A stretch of DNA of 64,000 nt from the IMG/VR virus record IMGVR_UViG_642973540_000001; one strand, given 5' to 3'. Source of the DNA: a virus (lineage: Duplodnaviria; Heunggongvirae; Uroviricota; Caudoviricetes). The translations under genes and the position numbers were made by a program. This document shows, in pieces, positions 1,247 to 39,754 of this stretch. Below the pieces are notes generated by a model. That model saw only the letters and a program-made list of their open reading frames with translations, searched no databases and was not told the DNA's origin. The first letter of the stretch is position 1. Each line of letters opens with the position of its first letter.

Positions 1247-1319
1247 GCGGGTGTGGTGTAAACGGGGAACATACATGGTTTTGCCCATGTGGATGAGGGT
1301 TCGAGTCCCTTCACCTGCT
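1247..1319 (+). tRNA. tRNA-like gene with non-canonical anticodon arm (6-bp stem ACATGG/CCATGT, 6-nt loop TTTTGC; TTG triplet)
   Basis: acceptor GCGGGTG/CACCTGC, T-arm GAGGG-TTCGAGT-CCCTT, CCA encoded; anticodon loop not 7 nt. Confidence 0.5.
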
Positions 1320-1408
1320 GCTCTGAAGGTAGCCTGATGAAAATCAGGAGCAAATAACACGAGGCGACAGAACGCGCCTACTCTCAGAAAAATAAGTTGA
1401 AAAACTTG

Positions 1409-1437
1409 TTGACAGATAGAAAGAAGCGAGTTATGAT
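1409..1437 (+). promoter_or_regulatory. sigma70-like promoter TTGACA-N17-TATGAT
   Basis: consensus hexamers. Confidence 0.5.
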
Positions 1438-1460
1438 AGCTTCATAGTTTTAGAAAACAT

Positions 1461-1535
1461 CTCCGTTTAGCTCAGTATGGATAGAGTAGGCCGTTTGGGG
1501 CGGTCGGGTCGAAGGTTCGAATCCTTCAACGGAGA
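1461..1535 (+). tRNA. tRNA-Pro (TGG)
   Basis: acceptor CTCCGTT/AACGGAG, anticodon loop TTTGGGG, T-loop TTCGAAT, CCA encoded. Confidence 0.8.
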
Positions 1536-1545
1536 CCAAATTTAT

Positions 1546-1617
1546 GTCGTAGAAGGCAAATGGTTAGCCACCTGACCTTCAATCAGTTGCTCGCGGGTTC
1601 GAATCCCGTCTACGACT
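1546..1617 (+). tRNA. tRNA-Glu (TTC) probable; C at position 33
   Basis: acceptor GTCGTAG/CTACGAC, loop CCTTCAA, T-arm GCGGG-TTCGAAT-CCCGT, CCA encoded. Confidence 0.6.
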
Positions 1618-1629
1618 CCAAAATAAAGT

Positions 1630-1658
1630 TTGACAGGTACTTTGAATTCTGTCAGTAT
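1630..1658 (+). promoter_or_regulatory. sigma70-like promoter TTGACAGG-N17-CAGTAT
   Basis: -35 consensus, weaker -10. Confidence 0.4.
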
Positions 1659-1732
1659 GGGTCAGTAGCTTAATTGGGAAAGCATCTCACTTGCAATGAG
1701 AAGGATGAGGGTTCAAGTCCCTCCTGTATCCA
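1659..1732 (+). tRNA. tRNA-Ala (TGC) with imperfect acceptor/T-arm junction
   Basis: anticodon arm TCTCA-CTTGCAA-TGAGA, D-stem GCTT/AAGC, T-arm GAGGG-TTCAAGT-CCCTC, G3-U70 possible, ACCA 3' end; two acceptor mismatches. Confidence 0.55.
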
Positions 1733-1913
1733 CCAAAACTTTAATGGTCTGGTCAAATTCTCCCTTAGAATCTTGACTGATAAACTCTCTGTAAGGATTC
1801 GCGGTTGCTTGCAGAGCTTTGGGATAGCATCTTCTAAGTCACGTGCTGAAGAATGCGAAATTGGAATGACCTTGCCGAAACGGTTAGTTTGTCCAGAGCC
1901 ATTAAAGTTTTAT

Positions 1914-1985
1914 AGCGGGATGGAGCAGTGGTAGCTTGCCAGTTTCATTATCTGGAGGTCGTAGGTTCGAATCCTACTCCCGCTT
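1914..1985 (+). tRNA. tRNA with CAT anticodon (Met or Ile-lysidine)
   Basis: acceptor AGCGGGA/TCCCGCT, loop TTCATTA, T-T at 31-39, T-arm GTAGG-TTCGAAT-CCTAC. Confidence 0.7.
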
Positions 1986-1996
1986 CCAAATTTAAA

Positions 1997-2069
1997 GGGT
2001 TTGAAGCACATATGGATGTGCGGCTGGCTGTTAACCAGATGGTAGTGGGTTCGAGTCCCACCTTTCCCG
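1997..2069 (+). tRNA. tRNA-Asn (GTT) with three T-T mismatches in acceptor stem
   Basis: acceptor GGGTTTG/CTTTCCC, D-stem GCAC/GTGC, loop CTGTTAA, T-arm GTGGG-TTCGAGT-CCCAC, CCA encoded. Confidence 0.6.
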
Positions 2070-2078
2070 CCAATTTAT

Positions 2079-2158
2079 GCGTCTATGGCAGAGATGGTCA
2101 ATGCAGCGGTCTGTAAAACCGCCCCGAAAGGTTACTGGTTCGAGTCCAGTTAGGCGCA
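2079..2158 (+). tRNA. tRNA-Tyr (GTA), type II
   Basis: acceptor GCGTCTA/TAGGCGC, anticodon arm GCGGT-CTGTAAA-ACCGC, long variable arm, CCA encoded. Confidence 0.85.
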
Positions 2159-2167
2159 CCAAACAAT

Positions 2168-2238
2168 TGCGAAGTAGTGAAATGGCATCATACTGGTTTC
2201 ATTATCCGGTGTAGGTAGTTCGAATCTACCCTTCGCAT
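2168..2238 (+). tRNA. tRNA with CAT anticodon (Met or Ile-lysidine)
   Basis: perfect acceptor TGCGAAG/CTTCGCA, loop TTCATTA, T-arm GGTAG-TTCGAAT-CTACC. Confidence 0.75.
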
Positions 2239-2320
2239 CCAAATTACTCAGTTTGGGTTGTTCTGAGTGACGTGTAGGGTATTACCCTTTAGAGCGTCGA
2301 ATCAAAGACTCCTTAAAGTT

Positions 2321-2394
2321 GGGGATGTGGCAGACTTGGTAATTGTACCGCACTGTCTATGCGGAATATGAGGGTTCAAATCCCTTCATCCTCG
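2321..2394 (+). tRNA. tRNA-Asp (GTC)
   Basis: acceptor GGGGATG/CATCCTC, anticodon arm CCGCA-CTGTCTA-TGCGG, T-loop TTCAAAT. Confidence 0.75.
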
Positions 2395-2624
2395 CCAATT
2401 TCACCGGAAAGACTTAAAGTCCAACTGGTAACTGCCGTCTGGTATATGCGGTGATTCTACTTTGTAGCGTTCCTCTTATGAGGTGAATGGATGTCTCCTT
2501 TCCAAAGCACATTTAGATGAAATATACAGGTCTACAGCTTTTACTTAAACGTTTCACCTCCTTGCGTTTAAGGTTTGGGCTACATAACTGAGTAGTCTCG
2601 CTCAGGGCGACAGAGAGACAAAAT

Positions 2625-2712
2625 GGAAGGGCAAATCGACTGGCGACGAAAACGGTCTTGAAAACCGCCGAGCGTTAATAGCGCCTTGAGGGTTCGACTC
2701 CCTCTCCTTCCG
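2625..2712 (+). tRNA. tRNA-Ser (TGA), type II
   Basis: acceptor GGAAGGG/TCCTTCC, loop CTTGAAA, long variable arm, T-arm GAGGG-TTCGACT-CCCTC, GCCA end. Confidence 0.75.
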
Positions 2713-2716
2713 CCAC

Positions 2717-2788
2717 GGTCTAATTAGCTTATATGGTAAAGCAACGGTCTGAAAAGCCGTGGAACAGGGTTCGAATCCCGATAGACCG
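2717..2788 (+). tRNA. tRNA-Phe (GAA)
   Basis: anticodon arm ACGGT-CTGAAAA-GCCGT, acceptor GGTCTAA/ATAGACC, CCA encoded. Confidence 0.75.
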
Positions 2789-2798
2789 CCAAATTCAA

Positions 2799-2871
2799 CG
2801 GTGTGTAACTCAATTGGCAGAGTGGGTGGCTTTTAACCACAGGGTTGCAGGTTCGATGCCTGTCACACCGA
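2799..2871 (+). tRNA. tRNA-Lys (TTT)
   Basis: acceptor CGGTGTG/CACACCG, D-stem ACTC/GAGT, loop CTTTTAA, T-arm GCAGG-TTCGATG-CCTGT. Confidence 0.8.
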
Positions 2872-2881
2872 CCAAACAAAT

Positions 2882-2955
2882 GGACTATTAACTCAACTGG
2901 TCAGAGTACCCGACTCTTAATCGGGAGGTTCAGGGTTCGACTCCCTGATAGTCTA
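2882..2955 (+). tRNA. tRNA-Lys (CTT)
   Basis: acceptor GGACTAT/ATAGTCT, anticodon arm CCCGA-CTCTTAA-TCGGG, T-arm CAGGG-TTCGACT-CCCTG. Confidence 0.75.
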
Positions 2956-2969
2956 CCAAATTTCTTAGT

Positions 2970-3042
2970 AGTGGTATGGCAGAGATGGTCATGCACTTCC
3001 TTCATACGGAAGATTACATCGGTTCAAGTCCGATTACCACTT
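2970..3042 (+). tRNA. tRNA with CAT anticodon (Met or Ile-lysidine); CCA not encoded
   Basis: perfect acceptor AGTGGTA/TACCACT, arm CTTCC-TTCATAC-GGAAG, T-arm ATCGG-TTCAAGT-CCGAT, 3' end followed by TCTA. Confidence 0.75.
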
Positions 3043-3056
3043 CTAAGAGATTTAAT

Positions 3057-3128
3057 TGTGGGTTAGCATAAATGGTAATGCAGACGGCTGATAACCGTCA
3101 GAAGAGGGTTCGATACCCTCACCTACGA
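3057..3128 (+). tRNA. tRNA-Ile (GAT)
   Basis: anticodon arm GACGG-CTGATAA-CCGTC, T-arm GAGGG-TTCGATA-CCCTC, CCA encoded. Confidence 0.8.
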
Positions 3129-3138
3129 CCAAACAATC

Positions 3139-3210
3139 GGGGTATGGAGTAATTGGCAACTCTACGGTTTTTGAGGCCGTCAGTTTTCGGTTCGAATCCG
3201 AATGCCCCCG
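3139..3210 (+). tRNA. tRNA-Gln (TTG)
   Basis: acceptor GGGGTAT vs ATGCCCC(C), loop TTTTGAG, T-loop TTCGAAT; one-nt irregularity at 3' acceptor. Confidence 0.7.
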
Positions 3211-3219
3211 CCAAAAAAT

Positions 3220-3293
3220 GCACCCTTAGAACAACTGGACAGTTCCGCTGTCTTCTAAACAGCTAGTTACAGGTTCGAGTCCTGTAGGGTGTG
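3220..3293 (+). tRNA. tRNA-Arg (TCT)
   Basis: acceptor GCACCCT/AGGGTGT, arm GCTGT-CTTCTAA-ACAGC, T-arm ACAGG-TTCGAGT-CCTGT. Confidence 0.8.
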
Positions 3294-3380
3294 CCAAAAA
3301 TGGGTGATTCTGCAACGGTGGAGCTAGGCCAGCTTTGAAGCCGTAAAATGGGAATGTGGTATCGACTTACGATAGTTGTT

Positions 3381-3465
3381 GAAAGTGATTTGTGAAGCCG
3401 GACTAACAGATTATGAGTAAATGGCGACAATACGTTGTAGAGAGGTTCGAATCCTTAATCACTCG
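3381..3465 (+). tRNA. tRNA-like element: canonical T-arm + acceptor 3' strand + CCA, but no recognisable anticodon arm; matching 5' acceptor strand GGGTGAT lies about 160 nt upstream (3302)
   Basis: AGAGG-TTCGAAT-CCTTA-ATCACTC-G-CCA at 3441-3468; 5' partner GGGTGAT at 3302-3308. Confidence 0.35.
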
Positions 3466-3476
3466 CCAAATTTAGG

Positions 3477-3505
3477 TTGACAGGTGAAACAAACTCCTGT
3501 AATCT
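3477..3505 (+). promoter_or_regulatory. sigma70-like promoter TTGACAGG-N17-TAATCT
   Basis: consensus hexamers. Confidence 0.5.
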
Positions 3506-3713
3506 TTACCGTAGTTTTCGTTGAGTATGCTTCTATTTTTATCATTTAAAATAAATGCAAATGATGCTCAATTTCTGGCAGTGGCGTAATAGCTAAACAC
3601 CAGTAGGGTCTTCCGACTCCCTATCACCGAATTCGGCGTAGAGTTGTCCCGTCTATGATTGCCAAACGGGGCTTCAACCTAAAAGGTTCTTACGAGAGTC
3701 TTTCAGATTGAAT

Positions 3714-3787
3714 GGCGTAATATCCCAATTGGCAGAGGAAGCAGGTTCAAACCCTGTTCAGTGTGGGTTCGACTCCCACTTACGCTA
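3714..3787 (+). tRNA. tRNA with CAA (Leu) anticodon but type-I (short variable loop) architecture
   Basis: acceptor GGCGTAA/TTACGCT, arm GCAGG-TTCAAAC-CCTGT, 5-nt variable loop, T-arm GTGGG-TTCGACT-CCCAC. Confidence 0.6.
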
Positions 3788-3919
3788 CCAGATTCAGATG
3801 TCTTTGTAATCGTCCCTGAAATGACGGGGCAATTAAGGAGGTGGTCTGTATCTCCTGACTGTCAGGATAACCAGTAGAGCGTTAACAACACTGAGAAGTG
3901 TGGTAACTCGCTTGATAAT

Positions 3920-3992
3920 GCAAGTATGATGTCAACTGGTAACATGGCGTCCTTCCAAGTCGCTCTTACGGGTTCGAATCCCGTTACTTGCT
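3920..3992 (+). tRNA. tRNA-Gly (TCC)
   Basis: perfect acceptor GCAAGTA/TACTTGC, D-stem ATGT/ACAT, loop CTTCCAA, T-arm ACGGG-TTCGAAT-CCCGT. Confidence 0.8.
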
Positions 3993-4001
3993 CCAAACAA
4001 T

Positions 4002-4074
4002 AGGGGATTAGTTTAACTGGCAAAATGTCGGCCTCCAAAACCGCACGTTGAGGGTTCGAATCCCTCATCCCCTG
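4002..4074 (+). tRNA. tRNA-Trp (CCA); weak anticodon stem; CCA not encoded
   Basis: perfect acceptor AGGGGAT/ATCCCCT, loop CTCCAAA as in E. coli tRNA-Trp, T-arm GAGGG-TTCGAAT-CCCTC. Confidence 0.7.
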
Positions 4075-4086
4075 TCAATTCAGAAT

Positions 4087-4158
4087 GCCTCCATCATATA
4101 AGGGCTATTATGCCTGTTTTGTAATCAGGTCATCGCGGTTCGAATCCGTGTGGGGGCA
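4087..4158 (+). tRNA. tRNA-Thr (TGT)
   Basis: acceptor GCCTCCA/TGGGGGC, loop TTTGTAA with T-T at 31-39, T-arm CGCGG-TTCGAAT-CCGTG. Confidence 0.75.
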
Positions 4159-4168
4159 CCAAAACTAT

Positions 4169-4241
4169 ACTCGTATAGCTCAGATGGTAGAGCGGCATCT
4201 TTACACGTTGCTGGTCAGGCGTTCGAGTCGCCTTGCGAGTA
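4169..4241 (+). tRNA. tRNA-Val (TAC)
   Basis: acceptor ACTCGTA/TGCGAGT, D-arm GCTC-AGATGGTAGA-GCGG, loop TTTACAC, T-arm AGGCG-TTCGAGT-CGCCT. Confidence 0.8.
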
Positions 4242-4250
4242 CCAAACAAT

Positions 4251-4325
4251 GGCTGTGTAGCCCAACTTGGCAGAGGCACTACGCTAAGAACGTATACAGT
4301 GAGAGTTCGAATCTCTCCACAGCTA
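4251..4325 (+). tRNA. tRNA, anticodon ambiguous (loop CTAAGAA reads AAG; Leu-like, type-I)
   Basis: acceptor GGCTGTG/CACAGCT, T-arm GAGAG-TTCGAAT-CTCTC, CCA encoded. Confidence 0.55.
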
Positions 4326-4334
4326 CCAAACAAT

Positions 4335-4408
4335 AGCCCTTTATCTTAAATGGATAGAGACTCAAGCTACGAACTTGAGAGGTTTGGGTTCGAATCCCAA
4401 AAGGGCTT
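4335..4408 (+). tRNA. tRNA-Arg (ACG)
   Basis: perfect acceptor AGCCCTT/AAGGGCT, arm TCAAG-CTACGAA-CTTGA, T-arm TTGGG-TTCGAAT-CCCAA. Confidence 0.85.
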
Positions 4409-4413
4409 CCAAT

Positions 4414-4487
4414 AGGATGTTCGTATAGTTGGCCTATTACACCGGACTCTGAATCCGGTTACGATGGTTCGAATCCATCACGTCCTG
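4414..4487 (+). tRNA. tRNA-Gln (CTG)
   Basis: acceptor AGGATGT/ACGTCCT, arm CCGGA-CTCTGAA-TCCGG, T-arm GATGG-TTCGAAT-CCATC. Confidence 0.8.
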
Positions 4488-4496
4488 CCAAACAAT

Positions 4497-4570
4497 AGGT
4501 GATTACCCCAATTGGCAGAGGGTAGGAGCTTAAACCTCCGATGTTGAGAGTTCGAATCTCTCATCACCTA
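4497..4570 (+). tRNA. tRNA with TAA (Leu) anticodon but type-I architecture
   Basis: perfect acceptor AGGTGAT/ATCACCT, arm AGGAG-CTTAAAC-CTCCG, 5-nt variable loop, T-arm GAGAG-TTCGAAT-CTCTC. Confidence 0.65.
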
Positions 4571-4575
4571 CCAAT

Positions 4576-4650
4576 GGAGTTGGTATCATAAATGGATAAT
4601 GACCCTGACTGTGAATCAGGTCTATGCGGGTTCGAATCCCGTCCTTCTCC
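4576..4650 (+). tRNA. tRNA-His (GTG) with G-1 and two T-T mismatches in acceptor stem
   Basis: G-1 + GAGTTGG/CCTTCTC + C73, D-stem TCAT/ATGA, arm CCTGA-CTGTGAA-TCAGG, T-arm GCGGG-TTCGAAT-CCCGT. Confidence 0.8.
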
Positions 4651-4659
4651 CCAAATTCT

Positions 4660-36282: not shown

Positions 36283-36305
36283 AATAAAAGGACTCCGAAG
36301 AGTCC
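36283..36305 (-). terminator. minus-strand terminator GGACTC-TTCG-GAGTCC-TTTTATTT (family copy 2)
   Basis: reverse-complement of the conserved terminator, 7 nt downstream of 36312 gene. Confidence 0.7.
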
Positions 36306-36311
36306 ATTGGT

Positions 36312-36521
36312 TTATTTTAAGAATGCTTTAATCAGTTGGTAGAGAAAGACTACCATGAAACCTGATGCAAGACCCTCAATGATACCGAAGAAGATAATAA
36401 TGGTATCTGAAGCGAAACGCAACGGTCTTTTTGCAGCAAACTGTAAAAGTTTAAAACTATCGACTGCCAACCAGATAATACCGATTGCGATAGTTAGGCA
36501 GACCAAAATAGAACTAAGCAT
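36312..36521 (-). CDS. small membrane protein (69 aa)
   Basis: two hydrophobic helices; ORF track. Confidence 0.45.
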   Translation of the reverse strand: MLSSILVCLTIAIGIIWLAVDSFKLLQFAAKRPLRFASDTIIIFFGIIEGLASGFMVVFLYQLIKAFLK

Positions 36522-37782
36522 TTGAATCCTTTTGAATTTGTAAGTAACGAGTCAGTATTTTACCGACCTTTTCAACGTTTGATTTGTGAATCAACTGCTT
36601 CTTAGTCTGAATATTGTCAGTTTCTTTGATAGCCTCAACCACCTCTGGAGAGAGCTTTCTTGTTTGACTGACAGCTTCAGCAAGCATGTTCATCTGAAGA
36701 TACGGGACTTTCTGTAGTCTCGCGTTGGCATCAGAAACACACGTCATACAAAGCGCATTCACGATAGCTTGGTTATTGAACTGGTTATGTTCCTCTAACC
36801 ATAGCGCAAGTCGATTAGCGCGACGTACAAACATACCATGAACACGATGATGTTGCTCTGCACAGAACTGAGTAGCGACCCTGACAGACTTTGGAGCACC
36901 GATTCTCTCAACGAATGACAGTAGGTCTCTAACATCAGATTCGTGTCCATGAAGATTTCCACGCTCCGATAGAGTAAGTCTTTTACCCATGTCGTGACAT
37001 AAGATGCACAGGGACTGAGTGACCCTATCACCACTATTCCATCCATATTGCGGTAACTCCACTTCTTCGTAATGTTTCAATGCGAGAACGGTATGGTTCA
37101 GCACATCACCTTCAGGGTGGTATTTCTTAGGCTGTCTTACACCCTTCATTCCTGAGATTTCAGGGAACAAATTGAACTTACCACAAAGGCTAACAAACTT
37201 CCAGAAGTTTTCAGCAGATGCTGCTTTCTCAATCTCTTTCCAGATACGCTCTTTCGGGAGATGAGCAAGACAGTTAGCCTCAATCATTTGACGGAACAGT
37301 GCTTTCGTTTCAGGCTCAATGAACAGGTTATGACGTGCAGCGAATCTTAAACCTCTTAGAATTCGGAGAGGGTCTTCTTTAAAGCGGTCTGCATCAACCA
37401 CACGAAGGATTCTGTGTGCCAAGTCGTAACGGCTCATTGGATGAGCACAAATCAACTCATCAGTGTTTGCACCACCATTCACCACAGCAGATGCACAAGC
37501 ATTGATAGTGAAGTCACGACGAAGTAAATCCTCATCAAGTGTGACACCATCAGTCTCAACTTCGAAGTCGTTGTAACCTTCACCTGTTGAGTTCTCACGA
37601 CGAGCCATAGCAATCTCTGTACCGTCATCGGTGATGAATACAGGGAAAGCCTTTCCAACCTTTTTCAGTCCCAAATCAAGAAGCTGTTCTTCAGTGGCAT
37701 TAACGACCACAAAATCGTGGTCTGATGACGCTTTACCGAAGACTGCATCCCTGATTGAACCACCAACCAAGAAGAAGTCCAT
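36514..37782 (-). CDS. cca: tRNA nucleotidyltransferase (CCA-adding enzyme) with HD domain
   Basis: GGSIRD...DHDF head-domain motifs, HDMGK HD motif; start at MDFF (37782) 5 nt after upstream stop with GAGG SD. Confidence 0.8.
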   Translation of the reverse strand: MDFFLVGGSIRDAVFGKASSDHDFVVVNATEEQLLDLGLKKVGKAFPVFITDDGTEIAMARRENSTGEGYNDFEVETDGVTLDEDLLRRDFTINACASAVVNGGANTDELICAHPMSRYDLAHRILRVVDADRFKEDPLRILRGLRFAARHNLFIEPETKALFRQMIEANCLAHLPKERIWKEIEKAASAENFWKFVSLCGKFNLFPEISGMKGVRQPKKYHPEGDVLNHTVLALKHYEEVELPQYGWNSGDRVTQSLCILCHDMGKRLTLSERGNLHGHESDVRDLLSFVERIGAPKSVRVATQFCAEQHHRVHGMFVRRANRLALWLEEHNQFNNQAIVNALCMTCVSDANARLQKVPYLQMNMLAEAVSQTRKLSPEVVEAIKETDNIQTKKQLIHKSNVEKVGKILTRYLQIQKDSNA

Positions 37783-37789
37783 ATCAACC

Positions 37790-38140
37790 TCACTCAAACA
37801 GAATGCGCATGTCGTCTTTAGAGATTGCGAAGGTTGGGTAGATAGTCCCATCAACCTCAATTTCAATCTCGATGAAGGTTAAGCCGTGACGCTCACGGAA
37901 CAGAGTGTTAGCAATCTCATCACGTGCTTCTTGTGATTTCTTTCCAGATGCCAGTTTGAAGTTGGAGTAAGCCGAACCAACCTGCATAAAGCCGTTCTTA
38001 CGAGTGGCCTGATAGATTGGGTGTTTCTTACCTTCAAAGAACTTCAACAGGTTCTCACCCATCTTCTTTTCATTTGCGGTAGGCTTACCATAAAAGCACA
38101 TGGCATAGTTGTTGTGGAAAATCACATTTTCTTTCTTCAT
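37790..38140 (-). CDS. hypothetical protein (116 aa)
   Basis: ORF track; upstream of cca. Confidence 0.55.
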   Translation of the reverse strand: MKKENVIFHNNYAMCFYGKPTANEKKMGENLLKFFEGKKHPIYQATRKNGFMQVGSAYSNFKLASGKKSQEARDEIANTLFRERHGLTFIEIEIEVDGTIYPTFAISKDDMRILFE

Positions 38141-38213: not shown

Positions 38214-38239
38214 ATAAAAAAGGACTCCGAAGAGTCCCT
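38214..38239 (-). terminator. minus-strand terminator AAGGGACTC-TTCG-GAGTCCTT-TTTTTTATT (family copy 3)
   Basis: perfect stem, UUCG loop, T7 on minus. Confidence 0.7.
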
Positions 38240-38246
38240 TTATAAA

Positions 38247-39125
38247 TTACTGATTCTGTTGGGCTTTAATCAAGGCTGACATGTCGATAATCTGACCTTG
38301 CTGTTGACCCTGAACAAGGGGAAGATTGCCGCTCCACTTCTCTACCAGACGCAGTTGAATAACTGTCGGGTTCTGACGGAGAGCTTCACCCTGAATACGG
38401 ATTGCTTCAGCTTCACCTTGTGCTTTCAGGATTGCAGCGTCTTTTTCACCCTGTGCAGCATTCTTACGAGCATCGGCAGTTTGAACCGCAGTCAGTGCAG
38501 CTTGCTTCTGACGCTCTGTATGCTGCTGTTCAGAAATCTTCTGGTTCATCGACTCAACAACAGCTTTTGGTGGTAATGGGCTGCTTGTGAAGTAAATGTT
38601 CTCGATGATGATACCATACGGTGCAACCTGATTTGCAACGTCTGCTTTCACATCAATCAGAAGCTGAGTCTTACCAGAGCCGTACAACTCTTCAACGCTC
38701 AACTTAGAAGCATGACGGATAAATGCGTCACGAATCATGTTGTGCAGGTAGTTGTCCGTAATCTCATCAATACCCTGACGGTATTTCTGGAACAGGTCAA
38801 CAGCCTTGTTCGGGTCTACATGGTAAGCCAGACCAACGTTCACAGTCCACTCATCACCACCCTCTGAAGGTTGGATTTTGAAAGCCTGTGCGCCAGACCA
38901 TTCTTTGTTCTGAGTCGTTGTTGGGAACAGATACAGGTCATGACCCCAAGCAGTGAATTTCCAACCAAGACCGACACGCTGGATAGAATCCTTATCAGTG
39001 TCAGAGCCAGTTGTTTTCACGTACACACCGACATTGCCGGGAGTGACTTTGTTACAAGCGGTCAGTGACGTTGCACCGATAACCATTGCAGCAGCGATTA
39101 CGATATTCTTGAGCAGCTTTTTCAT
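38247..39125 (-). CDS. SPFH/band-7 (HflK/C-like) domain lipoprotein
   Basis: lipoprotein signal MKKLLKNIVIAAAMVIGATSLTAC; SPFH core and Ala/Gln-rich coiled coil KAQGEAEAIRIQGEAL. Confidence 0.75.
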   Translation of the reverse strand: MKKLLKNIVIAAAMVIGATSLTACNKVTPGNVGVYVKTTGSDTDKDSIQRVGLGWKFTAWGHDLYLFPTTTQNKEWSGAQAFKIQPSEGGDEWTVNVGLAYHVDPNKAVDLFQKYRQGIDEITDNYLHNMIRDAFIRHASKLSVEELYGSGKTQLLIDVKADVANQVAPYGIIIENIYFTSSPLPPKAVVESMNQKISEQQHTERQKQAALTAVQTADARKNAAQGEKDAAILKAQGEAEAIRIQGEALRQNPTVIQLRLVEKWSGNLPLVQGQQQGQIIDMSALIKAQQNQ

Positions 39126-39127
39126 TT

Positions 39128-39349
39128 TTACAGTTTCCTTTTAGAGGCGATTTCGCCAAGTCTTGCCATATTCTCTTCCATCTTAACAATGGCGGGTTCA
39201 ATGGCAACCATTAAAGAGTGCAACTCTACGAGAGTCTTCAAACCATCTGACACTTTACCAGTGTTGATGTCCTGTATCGCGTCGAGTAGGTGTATCTTAA
39301 TGTTGTCGGTCAGGGATGTCAATGCTTTTTCTTTCATTTCTTGACTCAT
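39128..39349 (-). CDS. small helical protein (start uncertain)
   Basis: ORF 39128..39445 overlaps next gene out of frame; candidate ATGs at 39349/39337. Confidence 0.3.
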   Translation of the reverse strand: MSQEMKEKALTSLTDNIKIHLLDAIQDINTGKVSDGLKTLVELHSLMVAIEPAIVKMEENMARLGEIASKRKL

Positions 39350-39548
39350 TTTTATAGAACTCAATATCCAGTAGTTCGTGAATGACACCTTTGATGCCCT
39401 GTTTAAGGAACACTTTCTCAGATGTCGGTAAAGTTGCGTTATCAATCAACGAGTTAAGACGAGAGTAGAGTTTCTTTCTGCGATTCTTAATCGTTGACTC
39501 ACTCGCGCCTCGTTGTGTTGCTAAGTGGTTTCTTCCACGATGTGTCAT
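39297..39548 (-). CDS. small DNA-binding protein with sigma-region-4/LuxR-like HTH
   Basis: HLATQRGASESTIKNRRKKL HTH; ATG 39548 overlapping upstream stop (ATGA); track used TTG 39563. Confidence 0.4.
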   Translation of the reverse strand: MTHRGRNHLATQRGASESTIKNRRKKLYSRLNSLIDNATLPTSEKVFLKQGIKGVIHELLDIEFYKNESRNERKSIDIPDRQH

Positions 39549-39754
39549 GCTTTCTTCTTCCAAACGTCTTTTGAGACTTTGAACAGGTTGTAAGAAAATA
39601 GCCCTAGTAAGGCAATCAGGAAGAGTCCCATGAAGAACTCAGTTGTGTAGACCTTAGACATGAAGTCTGGTAACTCGGTCACAACAAGAGTCCATAGCCA
39701 TAGCACAAATAGCCAGATTGCGGCAAGGATAAACTTAAACGTAGTCCGAATCAT
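39545..39754 (-). CDS. small two-TM membrane protein
   Basis: hydrophobic helices; ORF track. Confidence 0.5.
   Translation of the reverse strand: MIRTTFKFILAAIWLFVLWLWTLVVTELPDFMSKVYTTEFFMGLFLIALLGLFSYNLFKVSKDVWKKKA

What the first reader, a model, noticed from the sequence alone, without database searches (positions are those of the whole stretch)
38247..39125. Phage lipoprotein with SPFH (band-7/HflK-like) domain
The product has a lipobox signal peptide (LTAC) followed by an SPFH/prohibitin-like core and a long Ala/Gln/Glu coiled coil (KAQGEAEAIRIQGEAL...). SPFH proteins scaffold membrane microdomains and regulate FtsH. A phage-encoded, envelope-anchored copy in the early/replication block could modulate FtsH. 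FtsH turns over lambda-CII-like regulators and membrane proteins. It could also act as a superinfection-exclusion lipoprotein, analogous in role (not sequence) to T5 Llp. The gene has its own UUCG terminator (38214) immediately downstream.
Basis: partly seen in the sequence, partly recalled or inferred. Interest (0 to 1): 0.55.

Follow-up and report, generated by a model that had tools for sequence, protein, structure and literature searches.

The report
Phage SPFH lipoprotein with membrane partner
The gene is a real, already-annotated phage copy of a membrane-scaffold (SPFH/band-7) protein carried on a lipid anchor outside the cytoplasm; across phages it travels with a tiny two-helix membrane protein, and nobody has tested what the pair does.

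Summary
The window is Erwinia phage phiEa21-4 (Kolesnikvirus, Felix O1-like, strictly lytic). ORF 38247-39125(-) is gp81.

- Pfam Band_7, E=3e-20.
- A canonical lipobox (LTAC, Cys24).
- A 65-residue helix after the SPFH core.
- A GGACTC-TTCG-GAGTCC terminator at 38222-38237.
- A position inside the DNA-polymerase-to-thymidylate-synthase block.

The identity is not new. GenBank and RefSeq already call it 'band 7 protein' or 'lipoprotein', it is phrog_200, and 768 phage records carry a homologue.

The AlphaFold model matches full-length cage-forming SPFH proteins (prohibitin, HflK/C, erlin). It is not an HflK or HflC orthologue and has no NfeD neighbour.

New here: the gene belongs to a two-gene module.
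- In almost all related phage and prophage loci, a 55-100 aa two-TM protein (phrog_1130, loop motif P-x-L-x-S) sits directly upstream.
- On independent loci, 49 of 49 significant profile hits were adjacent to or fused with the SPFH gene.
- 18 of 148 family representatives are natural fusions.
- In phiEa21-4 the positional counterpart is gp84 (39545-39754). Both genes are absent from Felix O1.

The FtsH and exclusion ideas remain untested guesses. Interest is moderate.

The parts
38247..39125 (-). gp81: SPFH/band-7 lipoprotein precursor, 292 aa. Signal peptide 1-23, lipobox LTAC, Cys24 with +2 Asn. SPFH core about 24-180, long helix 187-251, short helix 254-262, conserved W264-x-G266-x-x-P269, low-confidence C-tail.
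38214..38237 (-). Intrinsic terminator: GGACTC-TTCG-GAGTCC hairpin (38222-38237) followed by a T-run. It starts 10 nt after the gp81 stop codon.
   Evidence: Read directly in the sequence. It is one of 7 identical 16-mers in the window, with 0 expected by chance. RefSeq carries a terminator feature here.
39545..39754 (-). gp84: 69-aa protein with two TM helices, basic N- and C-termini and an acidic loop (ELPDFMSK). It is the candidate partner of gp81.
   Evidence: In locus L167, where the SPFH is 83% identical, the gp84 homologue (39% identity, E=1e-10) lies directly upstream of the SPFH gene. gp84 is the top window ORF against the partner profile only when bias correction is switched off: E=0.0012 without it, 3.2 with it. 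phrog_1130 gives E=0.087. Like gp81, it is absent from the Felix O1 syntenic block.
39128..39388 (-). gp82 (phrog_27922, no TM helix). Its stop codon lies 2-3 nt before the gp81 start codon. It intervenes between gp84 and gp81, and there is no evidence that it belongs to the module.
   Evidence: no Felix O1 homologue
39297..39548 (-). gp83 (phrog_5180), a Felix O1 core small protein (homologue of NP_944953) that lies between gp84 and gp81.

Best explanation
gp81 is a lipid-anchored SPFH scaffold that faces the periplasm.

Proposed steps:
1. After Sec export, Cys24 is lipidated and the signal peptide is removed. This is inferred from the lipobox.
2. The SPFH core then sits on a membrane surface, and the long helix bundles with neighbouring subunits into a ring or dome. 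This is how every solved full-length SPFH protein behaves, and it is inferred here from the fold match.
3. gp81 works as one half of a two-gene module. The other half is a small inner-membrane hairpin protein with both termini in the cytoplasm and a short conserved periplasmic loop. In phiEa21-4 this is gp84.
4. The cage most likely assembles on the outer face of the cytoplasmic membrane over the partner. That would create a fenced membrane patch early in infection.

The physiological output is unknown. My ranking is (a) conditioning or protecting the host membrane, including blocking entry of a second phage's DNA or premature permeabilisation, ahead of (b) interference with FtsH-type membrane proteolysis.

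Shown here: domain, lipobox, fold, gene linkage, fusions and phyletic co-occurrence. Inferred: oligomerisation, location, physical contact with the partner and the phenotype.
For: Domain and fold:
- Band_7 E=3e-20.
- The AlphaFold2 model has pLDDT 88.9.
- Foldseek aligns about 265-300 columns to PHB2 8rrh_B, HflK 7vhq_E, erlin 9vvj, HflC, stomatin, flotillin and QmcA, with E from 5e-13 to 6e-8.
- The best sequence match in the PDB is prohibitin-2, E=1.7e-5.

Anchor:
- The lipobox is conserved. 93 of 148 family representatives have a lipobox-like motif, and others carry an uncleaved TM anchor at the same place.
- Enterobacterial prophage copies read LVGC-D-R. Asp at +2 is the classical inner-membrane retention signal.

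Partner:
- All 25 sequence groups from IMG/VR have a small TM protein on the same strand upstream. In 22-23 of them it ends at or overlaps the SPFH start codon.
- These proteins align with invariant P, L, S and G and match phrog_1130.
- A profile built from them was run on 80 independent genome loci holding 6,518 ORFs. It gave 49 hits at E<=0.01: 46 directly upstream and 3 fused in frame, with none elsewhere.
- 18 of 148 representatives are partner-SPFH fusions that keep the lipobox.
- In the reverse test, partner homologues were followed by a Band_7 gene with a 4-8 nt overlap in 6 of 7 places.

phiEa21-4 specifically:
- The gp84 homologue is adjacent to the SPFH gene in L167.
- gp81 and gp84 are both missing from the Felix O1 syntenic block, whereas gp80 and gp83 are present there.
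Against: - gp84 is not significantly similar to the phrog_1130 partner family: E=3.2 with bias correction and 0.087 against the PHROG profile. In phiEa21-4 it is separated from gp81 by two genes. The link therefore rests on position in one relative and on shared architecture.
- The phiEa21-4 lipobox is C-N-K. By the enterobacterial +2 rule this predicts sorting to the outer membrane, where a two-TM inner-membrane protein with an 8-residue loop could not reach it.
- A prophage HflK/C-like SPFH protein of Pasteurella was reported in outer-membrane vesicles (PMC9872710). I could not check whether it belongs to this family.
- More distant chromosomal homologues (Bacteroidota, Oxalobacteraceae) lack the partner.
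- Oligomerisation was not modelled.
- No experiment on any member addresses a phage phenotype. Papers up to 2026 call the role unclear (PMC13239085, PMC7150955).
Confidence: 0.5

Rival explanations
1. FtsH modulator. gp81 would mimic or invade the host HflK/C cage, or build its own cage around FtsH. That would change the turnover of membrane or regulatory substrates during infection.
For: - The top structural relatives are the extracytoplasmic SPFH proteins linked to AAA-protease or ERAD control: PHB, HflK/C and erlin.
- gp81 has the same topology as HflK/C, with the SPFH domain outside the cytoplasm.
- The only NCBIfam hit is a weak one to HflK, E=2.6e-5.
- In lambdoid prophages the module sits between the cI-like repressor and xis/int. 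In lambda that operon holds cIII, an FtsH inhibitor (established knowledge).
Against: - It scores 23.8 bits against a 159.4 cut-off for HflK, and 12.6 against 134.4 for HflC.
- It is a single gene, not a heteropair.
- A lipid anchor replaces the TM helix that HflK/C uses.
- phiEa21-4 is virulent and has no CII-type switch.
- The conserved neighbour is a small hairpin protein, not a protease.
- Related SPFH genes occur in haloarchaeal viruses. Their hosts lack FtsH (from my own knowledge).
Confidence: 0.15
2. Superinfection exclusion, or protection from lysis from without. Made early, the pair would alter the periplasmic face of the inner membrane so that DNA of a second phage cannot enter. This would be functionally like T4 Imm/Sp, HK97 gp15, or the Ltp and Sie2009 proteins of Gram-positive phages.
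For: - Both proteins are envelope-located, small-partner membrane proteins.
- The module lies in an early/replication block in lytic phages.
- In temperate phages it lies in the repressor-to-integrase region, often near the prophage end.
- PHROGs files the partner under 'moron, auxiliary metabolic gene and host takeover'.
Against: - There is no sequence or profile similarity to any known exclusion protein, and no PADLOC match.
- Exclusion proteins are usually narrow in specificity. This module spans phages of many phyla and is a conserved chromosomal locus in Dyella.
- The 'superinfection exclusion protein' annotated next to the PhiSH19 copy is a soluble acidic protein and an unverified label.
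Confidence: 0.2
3. Membrane stabiliser or lysis-timing accessory. The cage would preserve membrane integrity and proton-motive force until programmed lysis, or sequester a holin-like hairpin partner.
For: - The partners are holin-like in format: small, two TM helices and a charged C-tail.
- In Kayvirus the pair mbpV-mbpS overlaps by one base and lies inside the holA-lysK-tgl lysis region (PMC7150955).
- Bacterial SPFH proteins work with small membrane proteins in envelope-stress responses (PMC8581546).
- Chromosomal conservation in Dyella argues for a general membrane role.
- The Pokken copy lies within a few kb of rIIA.
Against: - In phiEa21-4, and in the Stx and other enterobacterial lambdoid prophage loci examined, the module is not in a lysis cassette.
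- The partners have no match to holin families.
- There is no phenotype data.
Confidence: 0.2
4. Outer-membrane or vesicle-borne lipoprotein that acts as a lysogenic-conversion or host-interaction factor, with no role in the phage cycle itself.
For: - The C-N-K lipobox predicts Lol export in Enterobacterales.
- A prophage HflK/C-like protein of Pasteurella multocida is secreted in OMVs, signals through TLR1/2 and contributes to virulence (PMC9872710).
Against: - phiEa21-4 is a virulent phage of a plant pathogen.
- The gene is kept at 97-100% identity across 36 Kolesnikvirus genomes.
- Enterobacterial prophage copies carry Asp at +2.
- Other members are TM-anchored.
Confidence: 0.05

Closest known systems
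Prohibitin complex (PHB1/PHB2; PDB 8rrh, 9o9z)
   Same: It is the best PDB match both by sequence (E=1.7e-5) and by fold (E=4.5e-13). It has the same order of parts: SPFH core, one long wall helix, a short helix, then a C-terminal segment. Its SPFH domain is also on the non-cytoplasmic side, the intermembrane space, which is topologically the periplasm.
   Different: Prohibitin is a eukaryotic heteromer anchored by an N-terminal TM helix and works with the m-AAA protease. gp81 is a single gene, is lipid-anchored and shares only 16-18% identity.
E. coli HflK/HflC-FtsH (PDB 7vhp/7vhq, 7wi3, 9cz2)
   Same: It is a periplasm-facing SPFH cage on the inner membrane of the same kind of host. The fold match is E about 5e-13 to 1e-9.
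   Different: gp81 falls far below the TIGR01933 and TIGR01932 cut-offs. It has no TM helix, no paralogous partner and no evidence of FtsH contact.
SPFH-NfeD operons (QmcA-YbbJ, PDB 8z5g; YqiK-YqiJ; archaeal PH1511-PH1510)
   Same: It is a two-gene module: an SPFH scaffold translationally coupled to a membrane-protein gene.
   Different: The phage partner is a 55-100 aa hairpin with no NfeD/OB domain and no Pfam hit. QmcA faces the cytoplasm, whereas gp81 faces the periplasm.
B. subtilis YdjI/SamI with YdjG-YdjH (PspA-linked SPFH)
   Same: An SPFH protein depends on small membrane proteins encoded beside it, and it has an envelope-stress role (PMC8581546; bioRxiv 10.64898/2026.02.06.704340).
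   Different: It is cytoplasmic-facing, sits in a PspA operon and has unrelated partner sequences.
Phage exclusion lipoproteins (T5 Llp, phi80/N15 Cor, TP-J34 Ltp)
   Same: They are phage-encoded lipoproteins exposed in the envelope.
   Different: They are small, non-SPFH proteins that bind a receptor or a tape-measure protein. No similarity to them was detected. The resemblance is one of role only, and it is hypothetical.
Kayvirus MbpV-MbpS
   Same: MbpS is a homologue of gp81 (27-28% identity, E=1e-19). The preceding gene encodes a small TM protein and overlaps mbpS by one base.
   Different: The host is Gram-positive. MbpV has one TM helix and does not match the phrog_1130-type profile. The pair lies in the lysis region.

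Membership tests
SPFH / Band_7 superfamily (PF01145) | Profile match above Pfam's gathering score | tested here: met
   73.5 bits against a 23.6 cut-off, E=3e-20, residues 26-210
SPFH / Band_7 superfamily (PF01145) | Full-length cage-type architecture: SPFH1/2 core, long coiled-coil helix, short helix, C-terminal segment | tested here: met
   AlphaFold2 pLDDT 88.9 with helix 187-251. Foldseek aligns 265-300 columns to PHB, HflK/C, erlin, stomatin, flotillin and QmcA. This rests on a predicted structure, not a solved one.
SPFH / Band_7 superfamily (PF01145) | Assembly into a ring or cage oligomer on a membrane | not testable with these tools
   No multimer prediction is available, and there are no experimental data.
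HflK (TIGR01933) / HflC (TIGR01932) FtsH modulators | Equivalog profile score above the curated cut-off | tested here: not met
   HflK 23.8 against 159.4 bits; HflC 12.6 against 134.4 bits
HflK (TIGR01933) / HflC (TIGR01932) FtsH modulators | Paired hflK-hflC genes and an N-terminal TM anchor | tested here: not met
   There is a single SPFH gene in the locus, with a lipobox instead of a TM anchor.
HflK (TIGR01933) / HflC (TIGR01932) FtsH modulators | Physical or functional interaction with FtsH | not testable with these tools
   Needs pull-down or substrate-stability assays.
SPFH-NfeD operon | Adjacent gene encoding an NfeD (PF01957) membrane protein | tested here: not met
   gp80, gp82, gp83, gp84 and five partner proteins from other phages gave no NfeD hit in Pfam at E<=0.1.
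Bacterial lipoprotein (signal peptidase II substrate) | n-region, h-region and lipobox [LVI][ASTVI][GAS]C within the first ~40 residues | tested here: met
   MKKLLKNIVIAAAMVIGATSLTAC. The Cys is conserved in close homologues.
Bacterial lipoprotein (signal peptidase II substrate) | Actual lipidation, and sorting to the inner or outer membrane | not testable with these tools
   +2 Asn / +3 Lys predicts the outer membrane by the E. coli rule. Enterobacterial prophage copies have +2 Asp.
phrog_200 (phage 'lipoprotein') | Full-length profile match | tested here: met
   E=3.3e-78 over residues 1-291
phrog_1130-type partner + SPFH two-gene module (defined here) | A small two-TM protein on the same strand immediately upstream, with loop motif P-x-L-[IVF]-S | tested here: inconclusive
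   In phiEa21-4 the immediately upstream gene (gp82) has no TM helix. gp84, 420 nt upstream, has the right architecture and is adjacent to the SPFH gene in relative L167. Its profile similarity is not significant: E=3.2, 0.087, or 0.0012 without bias correction.
Known anti-phage defence / exclusion proteins (PADLOC) | Match to any defence-system profile | tested here: not met
   0 families at E<=1

The most novel reading that the evidence does not exclude
The phage-type SPFH lipoprotein and its small hairpin partner form a widespread, so far undescribed two-component membrane module. It is carried by lytic phages, temperate phages and some chromosomes. It would build a periplasm-side cage on the cytoplasmic membrane to take over or shield that membrane during infection. 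It is distinct from HflK/C-FtsH and from SPFH-NfeD systems. In this reading gp84-gp81 of phiEa21-4 is a rearranged copy.
Probability: 0.45. Interest if true: 0.6.

Novelty: new variant of a known kind. Interest (0 to 1): 0.4.

Why it matters
SPFH cages are now understood structurally in cells, but their purpose in viruses is not. Homologues of this gene occur in at least 768 sequenced phages. These include therapeutic Staphylococcus Kayviruses, Stx-converting phages, N4-like phages, phiKMV-like phages, jumbo phages, crAss-like phages and Lak phages. Papers as late as 2026 still say the reason is unclear.

Showing that the gene comes with a dedicated small membrane partner, sometimes fused to it, turns a vague annotation into a defined two-protein system. 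That system can be expressed, purified, imaged and deleted.

If it controls superinfection, membrane integrity or proteolysis, it would bear on phage-cocktail design. phiEa21-4 is itself used for fire-blight biocontrol. It would also bear on lysogenic conversion in pathogens.

The identity of the gene itself is ordinary and already in the databases.

Tried and rejected
- The NfeD partner idea was rejected. No neighbour or partner protein hits NfeD.
- Orthology to HflK or HflC was rejected on the curated cut-offs.
- No PADLOC defence-system profile matched.
- The 'superinfection exclusion protein' annotated next to the PhiSH19 copy looked like a lead. It is a soluble acidic protein, and the real upstream neighbour is an unannotated two-TM ORF.
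- My first naive greedy ORF picker failed in high-GC prophages, where spurious antisense ORFs displaced real genes. I replaced it with tblastn-anchored coordinates and an all-ORF clustering.
- The search for related loci with the full 48-sequence alignment, and later with the partner alignment, found no stretch conserved enough to search with.
- Significant homology of gp84 to the phrog_1130-type partners could not be shown. It is reported as inconclusive.
- Kayvirus MbpV and the PhiSH19 upstream ORF do not match the partner profile either.
- The tool's terminator scan missed the hairpin at 38222. I confirmed it by direct pattern search.
- Eight literature searches found no functional study of a phage SPFH protein. 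They found only annotations and speculation.
Full report
**Identity of the window**

The 2-kb stretch around the finding is 100% identical to Erwinia phage phiEa21-4 (EU710883 / NC_011811; Kolesnikvirus, Ounavirinae). It is 97-99.7% identical to about 20 sister phages. Window coordinate equals record coordinate minus 20576. The ORF at 38247-39125(-) is Ea21-4_gp81. RefSeq labels it 'lipoprotein'. In phiEa104, Pistou, Tian and Panisse it is 'band 7 protein'. In SunLIRen, SPARTY and Roscha1 it is wrongly called 'putative transposase'. The object is therefore real, and its domain identity is already in the public record.

**Checking the observation**

The 292-aa product matches Pfam Band_7 at 73.5 bits, against a gathering score of 23.6 (E=3e-20). 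It matches phrog_200 'lipoprotein' end to end (E=3e-78).

The N-terminus is MKKLLKNIVIAAAMVIGATSLTAC/NK. It has the three parts of a signal peptidase II substrate, and the Cys column is nearly invariant among close homologues.

AlphaFold2 on a 48-sequence alignment gives mean pLDDT 88.9. The model has:
- a beta-rich SPFH core at about residues 24-180;
- a single 65-residue helix at 187-251, which contains the KAQGEAEAIRIQGEAL stretch;
- a short helix at 254-262;
- a low-confidence tail.

W264, G266 and P269 just after the helices are invariant in the family.

The hairpin GGACTC-TTCG-GAGTCC followed by a T-run lies at 38222-38237, ten bases after the stop codon. RefSeq marks it as a terminator.

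The gene lies in the leftward block that runs from DNA polymerase (gp89) through ligase, CCA-adding enzyme and DHFR to thymidylate synthase. There is no room for a separate promoter, because the gp82 stop codon lies 2-3 nt before the gp81 ATG.

**What kind of SPFH protein it is**

Foldseek against the PDB returns only full-length, cage-forming SPFH proteins at the top:
- prohibitin-2 and HflK (E=4.5e-13);
- PHB1, erlin1/2 and HflC;
- then stomatin, flotillin and QmcA.

By sequence the best solved relative is prohibitin-2 (E=1.7e-5), then QmcA (4e-4). HflC is not significant (0.23). The curated HflK and HflC equivalog models are missed by more than 100 bits. No PADLOC defence family matches.

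gp81 is therefore a member of the SPFH superfamily. It has the prohibitin / HflK/C / erlin-like topology, with the SPFH domain outside the cytoplasm. It is not an HflK or HflC orthologue.

**Distribution**

tblastn finds a homologue in 768 phage records, 729 of them covering at least 80% of the protein. They include:
- Staphylococcus Kayvirus (MbpS);
- phiKMV-like Pseudomonas phages;
- Stx2-converting and P1-like coliphages, often mislabelled 'serine protease';
- Burkholderia phi1026b gp48 and Caulobacter phiCbK;
- N4-like Pokken, jumbo phages, haloarchaeal viruses, crAss-like phages and Lak phages.

An exhaustive phmmer search over 1.84 billion cluster representatives gives 117 clusters at E<=1e-30 and 701 at E<=1e-10.

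Only 36 phage records, all close relatives of phiEa21-4, carry a copy with at least 95% identity. The syntenic 18-kb block of Felix O1 has homologues of gp80 and gp83 but none of gp81. gp81 is therefore an accessory gene of the Kolesnikvirus lineage.

**The partner gene**

I fetched 80 IMG/VR loci encoding relatives. I located the SPFH gene by tblastn and grouped the loci at 80% identity into 25 groups.

In all 25 groups, a 55-100 aa ORF with hydrophobic helices lies upstream on the same strand. In 22-23 of them it ends at or overlaps the SPFH start codon, and most have two predicted helices. Twenty-two of these proteins align with invariant Pro, Leu, Ser and Gly in a short loop between the helices. 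The motif is P-x-L-[IVF]-S ... [AG]G, and both termini are basic. They match phrog_1130 'membrane protein', with E down to 7e-23, and no Pfam family.

The loci used to build the profile cannot also test it. I therefore ran the profile on 80 further loci from the GTDB genome collection. Among 6,518 ORFs on both strands, 49 scored E<=0.01. Of these, 46 were the ORF directly upstream of the SPFH gene and 3 were fused in frame to it. None lay anywhere else.

Among 148 family representatives from the exhaustive search, 18 carry the partner domain fused to the N-terminus and still keep the signal-peptide/lipobox segment after it. That arrangement only works topologically if the partner's C-terminus is cytoplasmic. 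This places its conserved loop in the periplasm.

In the reverse direction, partner homologues found with a profile search were followed by a Band_7 gene, overlapping by 4-8 nt, in 6 of 7 places examined. The exception is a truncated partner in the same prophage slot.

Other lineages have a different small TM protein in the same position:
- Kayvirus MbpV, which overlaps mbpS by one base;
- an unannotated two-TM ORF in PhiSH19.

Neither matches the profile.

**The partner in phiEa21-4**

The gene immediately upstream, gp82, has no TM segment. Two genes further upstream lies gp84 (39545-39754, 69 aa). It has two TM helices, basic termini and an acidic loop ELPDFMSK.

Its similarity to the phrog_1130-type family is not significant. 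It scores E=3.2 with HMMER's composition correction. Without that correction it is the top ORF among 396 window ORFs at E=0.0012, aligned in register on the Pro/Ser loop. Against the PHROG profile it scores E=0.087.

The stronger evidence is positional. A metagenomic Ounavirinae-like contig (L167) has an SPFH protein 83% identical to gp81. There the gp84 homologue (39% identity, E=1e-10) lies directly upstream of the SPFH gene, with a 67-nt gap and no gp82 or gp83 between them.

gp84, like gp81, is absent from the Felix O1 block, whereas gp83 is a Felix O1 core gene. I read gp84-gp81 as a module that was gained together and later split in phiEa21-4 by a local rearrangement. I put this at about 0.65.

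**Where the protein acts**

Three observations point to the outer face of the inner membrane:
- some close homologues replace the lipobox with an uncleaved TM anchor at the same position;
- the partner is an inner-membrane hairpin whose only conserved residues are in a roughly 8-residue periplasmic loop;
- the copies in E. coli, Enterobacter and Klebsiella lambdoid prophages read LVGC-D-R, and Asp at +2 is the classical Lol-avoidance signal (the rule is established E. coli knowledge).

Against this, phiEa21-4 and L167 read C-N-K, which by the same rule predicts export to the outer membrane. A prophage HflK/C-like protein of Pasteurella was also found in outer-membrane vesicles (PMC9872710), although its family membership was not verified here. 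This point is open and is easy to settle at the bench.

**Genomic context and function**

In lytic phages the module sits among early or replication genes:
- phiEa21-4;
- Pokken, next to tRNAs and a few kb upstream of rIIA;
- a 155-kb phage contig, next to a ligase.

In enterobacterial lambdoid prophages it lies between the cI-type repressor and xis/int on the same strand, in the early-left operon position. In Kayvirus it is inside the holin-endolysin-Tgl region. In Dyella and related Rhodanobacteraceae it is a conserved chromosomal locus beside BlaI/BlaR1-like and ribonucleotide-reductase genes, so the module is not exclusive to phages.

No paper in the searchable library reports a phage phenotype. 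Authors variously guess at CII/FtsH control (PMC4936722), help with Sec-dependent secretion of Tgl (PMC7150955), or adsorption/DNA entry (PMC13239085). They state that the reason for its presence is unclear.

**Mechanism I commit to**

gp81 is exported and lipidated. It assembles through its long helix into a ring or dome on the periplasmic face of the cytoplasmic membrane. There it encloses or is positioned by the hairpin partner gp84, producing a fenced membrane patch early in infection.

The steps from lipobox to lipidation, from fold to cage, and from linkage to contact are inferences. For the physiological output I rank:
- membrane conditioning or protection, including exclusion of incoming DNA or prevention of premature permeabilisation: about 0.4 combined;
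- FtsH or proteolysis interference: about 0.15;
- a vesicle or host-interaction role: about 0.05;
- something else for the remainder.

**Verdict**

The structural interpretation is right but already annotated.

The added value is the conserved and sometimes fused small-partner gene. It defines a variant of the SPFH-plus-partner theme, distinct from HflK/C-FtsH and SPFH-NfeD, that has apparently not been described. Interest is moderate (0.4).

Noticed in passing
window 26626, 36290, 38222, 53343, 57631, 58914, 62859: The 16-mer hairpin GGACTCTTCGGAGTCC (UUCG tetraloop) occurs seven times with no mismatch, against 0 expected in shuffles. Each copy is oriented with the local transcription direction. 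It looks like a reused terminator cassette spread through the genome.
   Followed up: partly
window 36312-36521 (-): A 69-aa ORF with two predicted TM helices lies between the terminator at 36290-36305 and the CCA-adding enzyme gene gp79. It is not annotated in NC_011811. Its start codon overlaps the end of the extended gp79 ORF.
   Followed up: no
window 36514-37866 (-): gp79 is a tRNA nucleotidyltransferase (CCA-adding enzyme) encoded by a phage that also carries about 26 tRNA genes (window about 1247-4653). The longest ORF starts at a TTG 84 nt upstream of the annotated start.
   Followed up: no
L002 3816-4004 (Stx2a phage Stx2_EH1910, LC567834) and L085 2432-2650(-) (Salmonella phage PhiSH19, JN126049): Small two-TM ORFs directly upstream of, and overlapping, the SPFH genes are missing from the deposited annotations. 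The Stx2 one is a strong phrog_1130 match (E=7e-23).
   Followed up: yes
database names of gp81 homologues: The same protein family is variously named 'putative transposase', 'serine protease', 'HflC protein', 'DNA polymerase I' (Bacillus phage Juglone, probably a feature-overlap artefact), 'lipoprotein' and 'band 7 protein'. The protease and transposase names appear to be propagated errors.
   Followed up: partly
L169-L174, L002 versus window 39054-39056: Enterobacterial lambdoid prophage copies have Asp at +2 after the lipobox Cys (C-D-R). phiEa21-4 and its 83%-identical relative have C-N-K. Members of one family may therefore be sorted to different membranes.
   Followed up: partly
L087-L124 (Dyella, Rhodanobacteraceae genomes): The partner-SPFH pair is present in nearly every Dyella species sampled. 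It sits in a conserved chromosomal neighbourhood with a BlaI-like repressor, a BlaR1-like M56 sensor-protease and class I ribonucleotide reductase. This suggests a domesticated or ancestral cellular version of the module.
   Followed up: partly
L140-L155 (Bacteroidota genomes): More distant SPFH lipoprotein homologues lack the hairpin partner. Many are instead preceded by a secreted protein of about 100 aa that ends in the conserved C-terminal motif ...L/F-R-I. This may be a different partner type.
   Followed up: no
L175 3001-3162: A 53-aa truncated partner ORF sits in the usual cI-to-int slot of a lambdoid prophage with no SPFH gene after it. This looks like a deletion remnant.
   Followed up: no
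window 39297-39548 and 39128-39388 (-): RefSeq gp83 and gp82 are annotated with a 92-nt overlap in different frames. One of the two start codons is probably mis-assigned.
   Followed up: no
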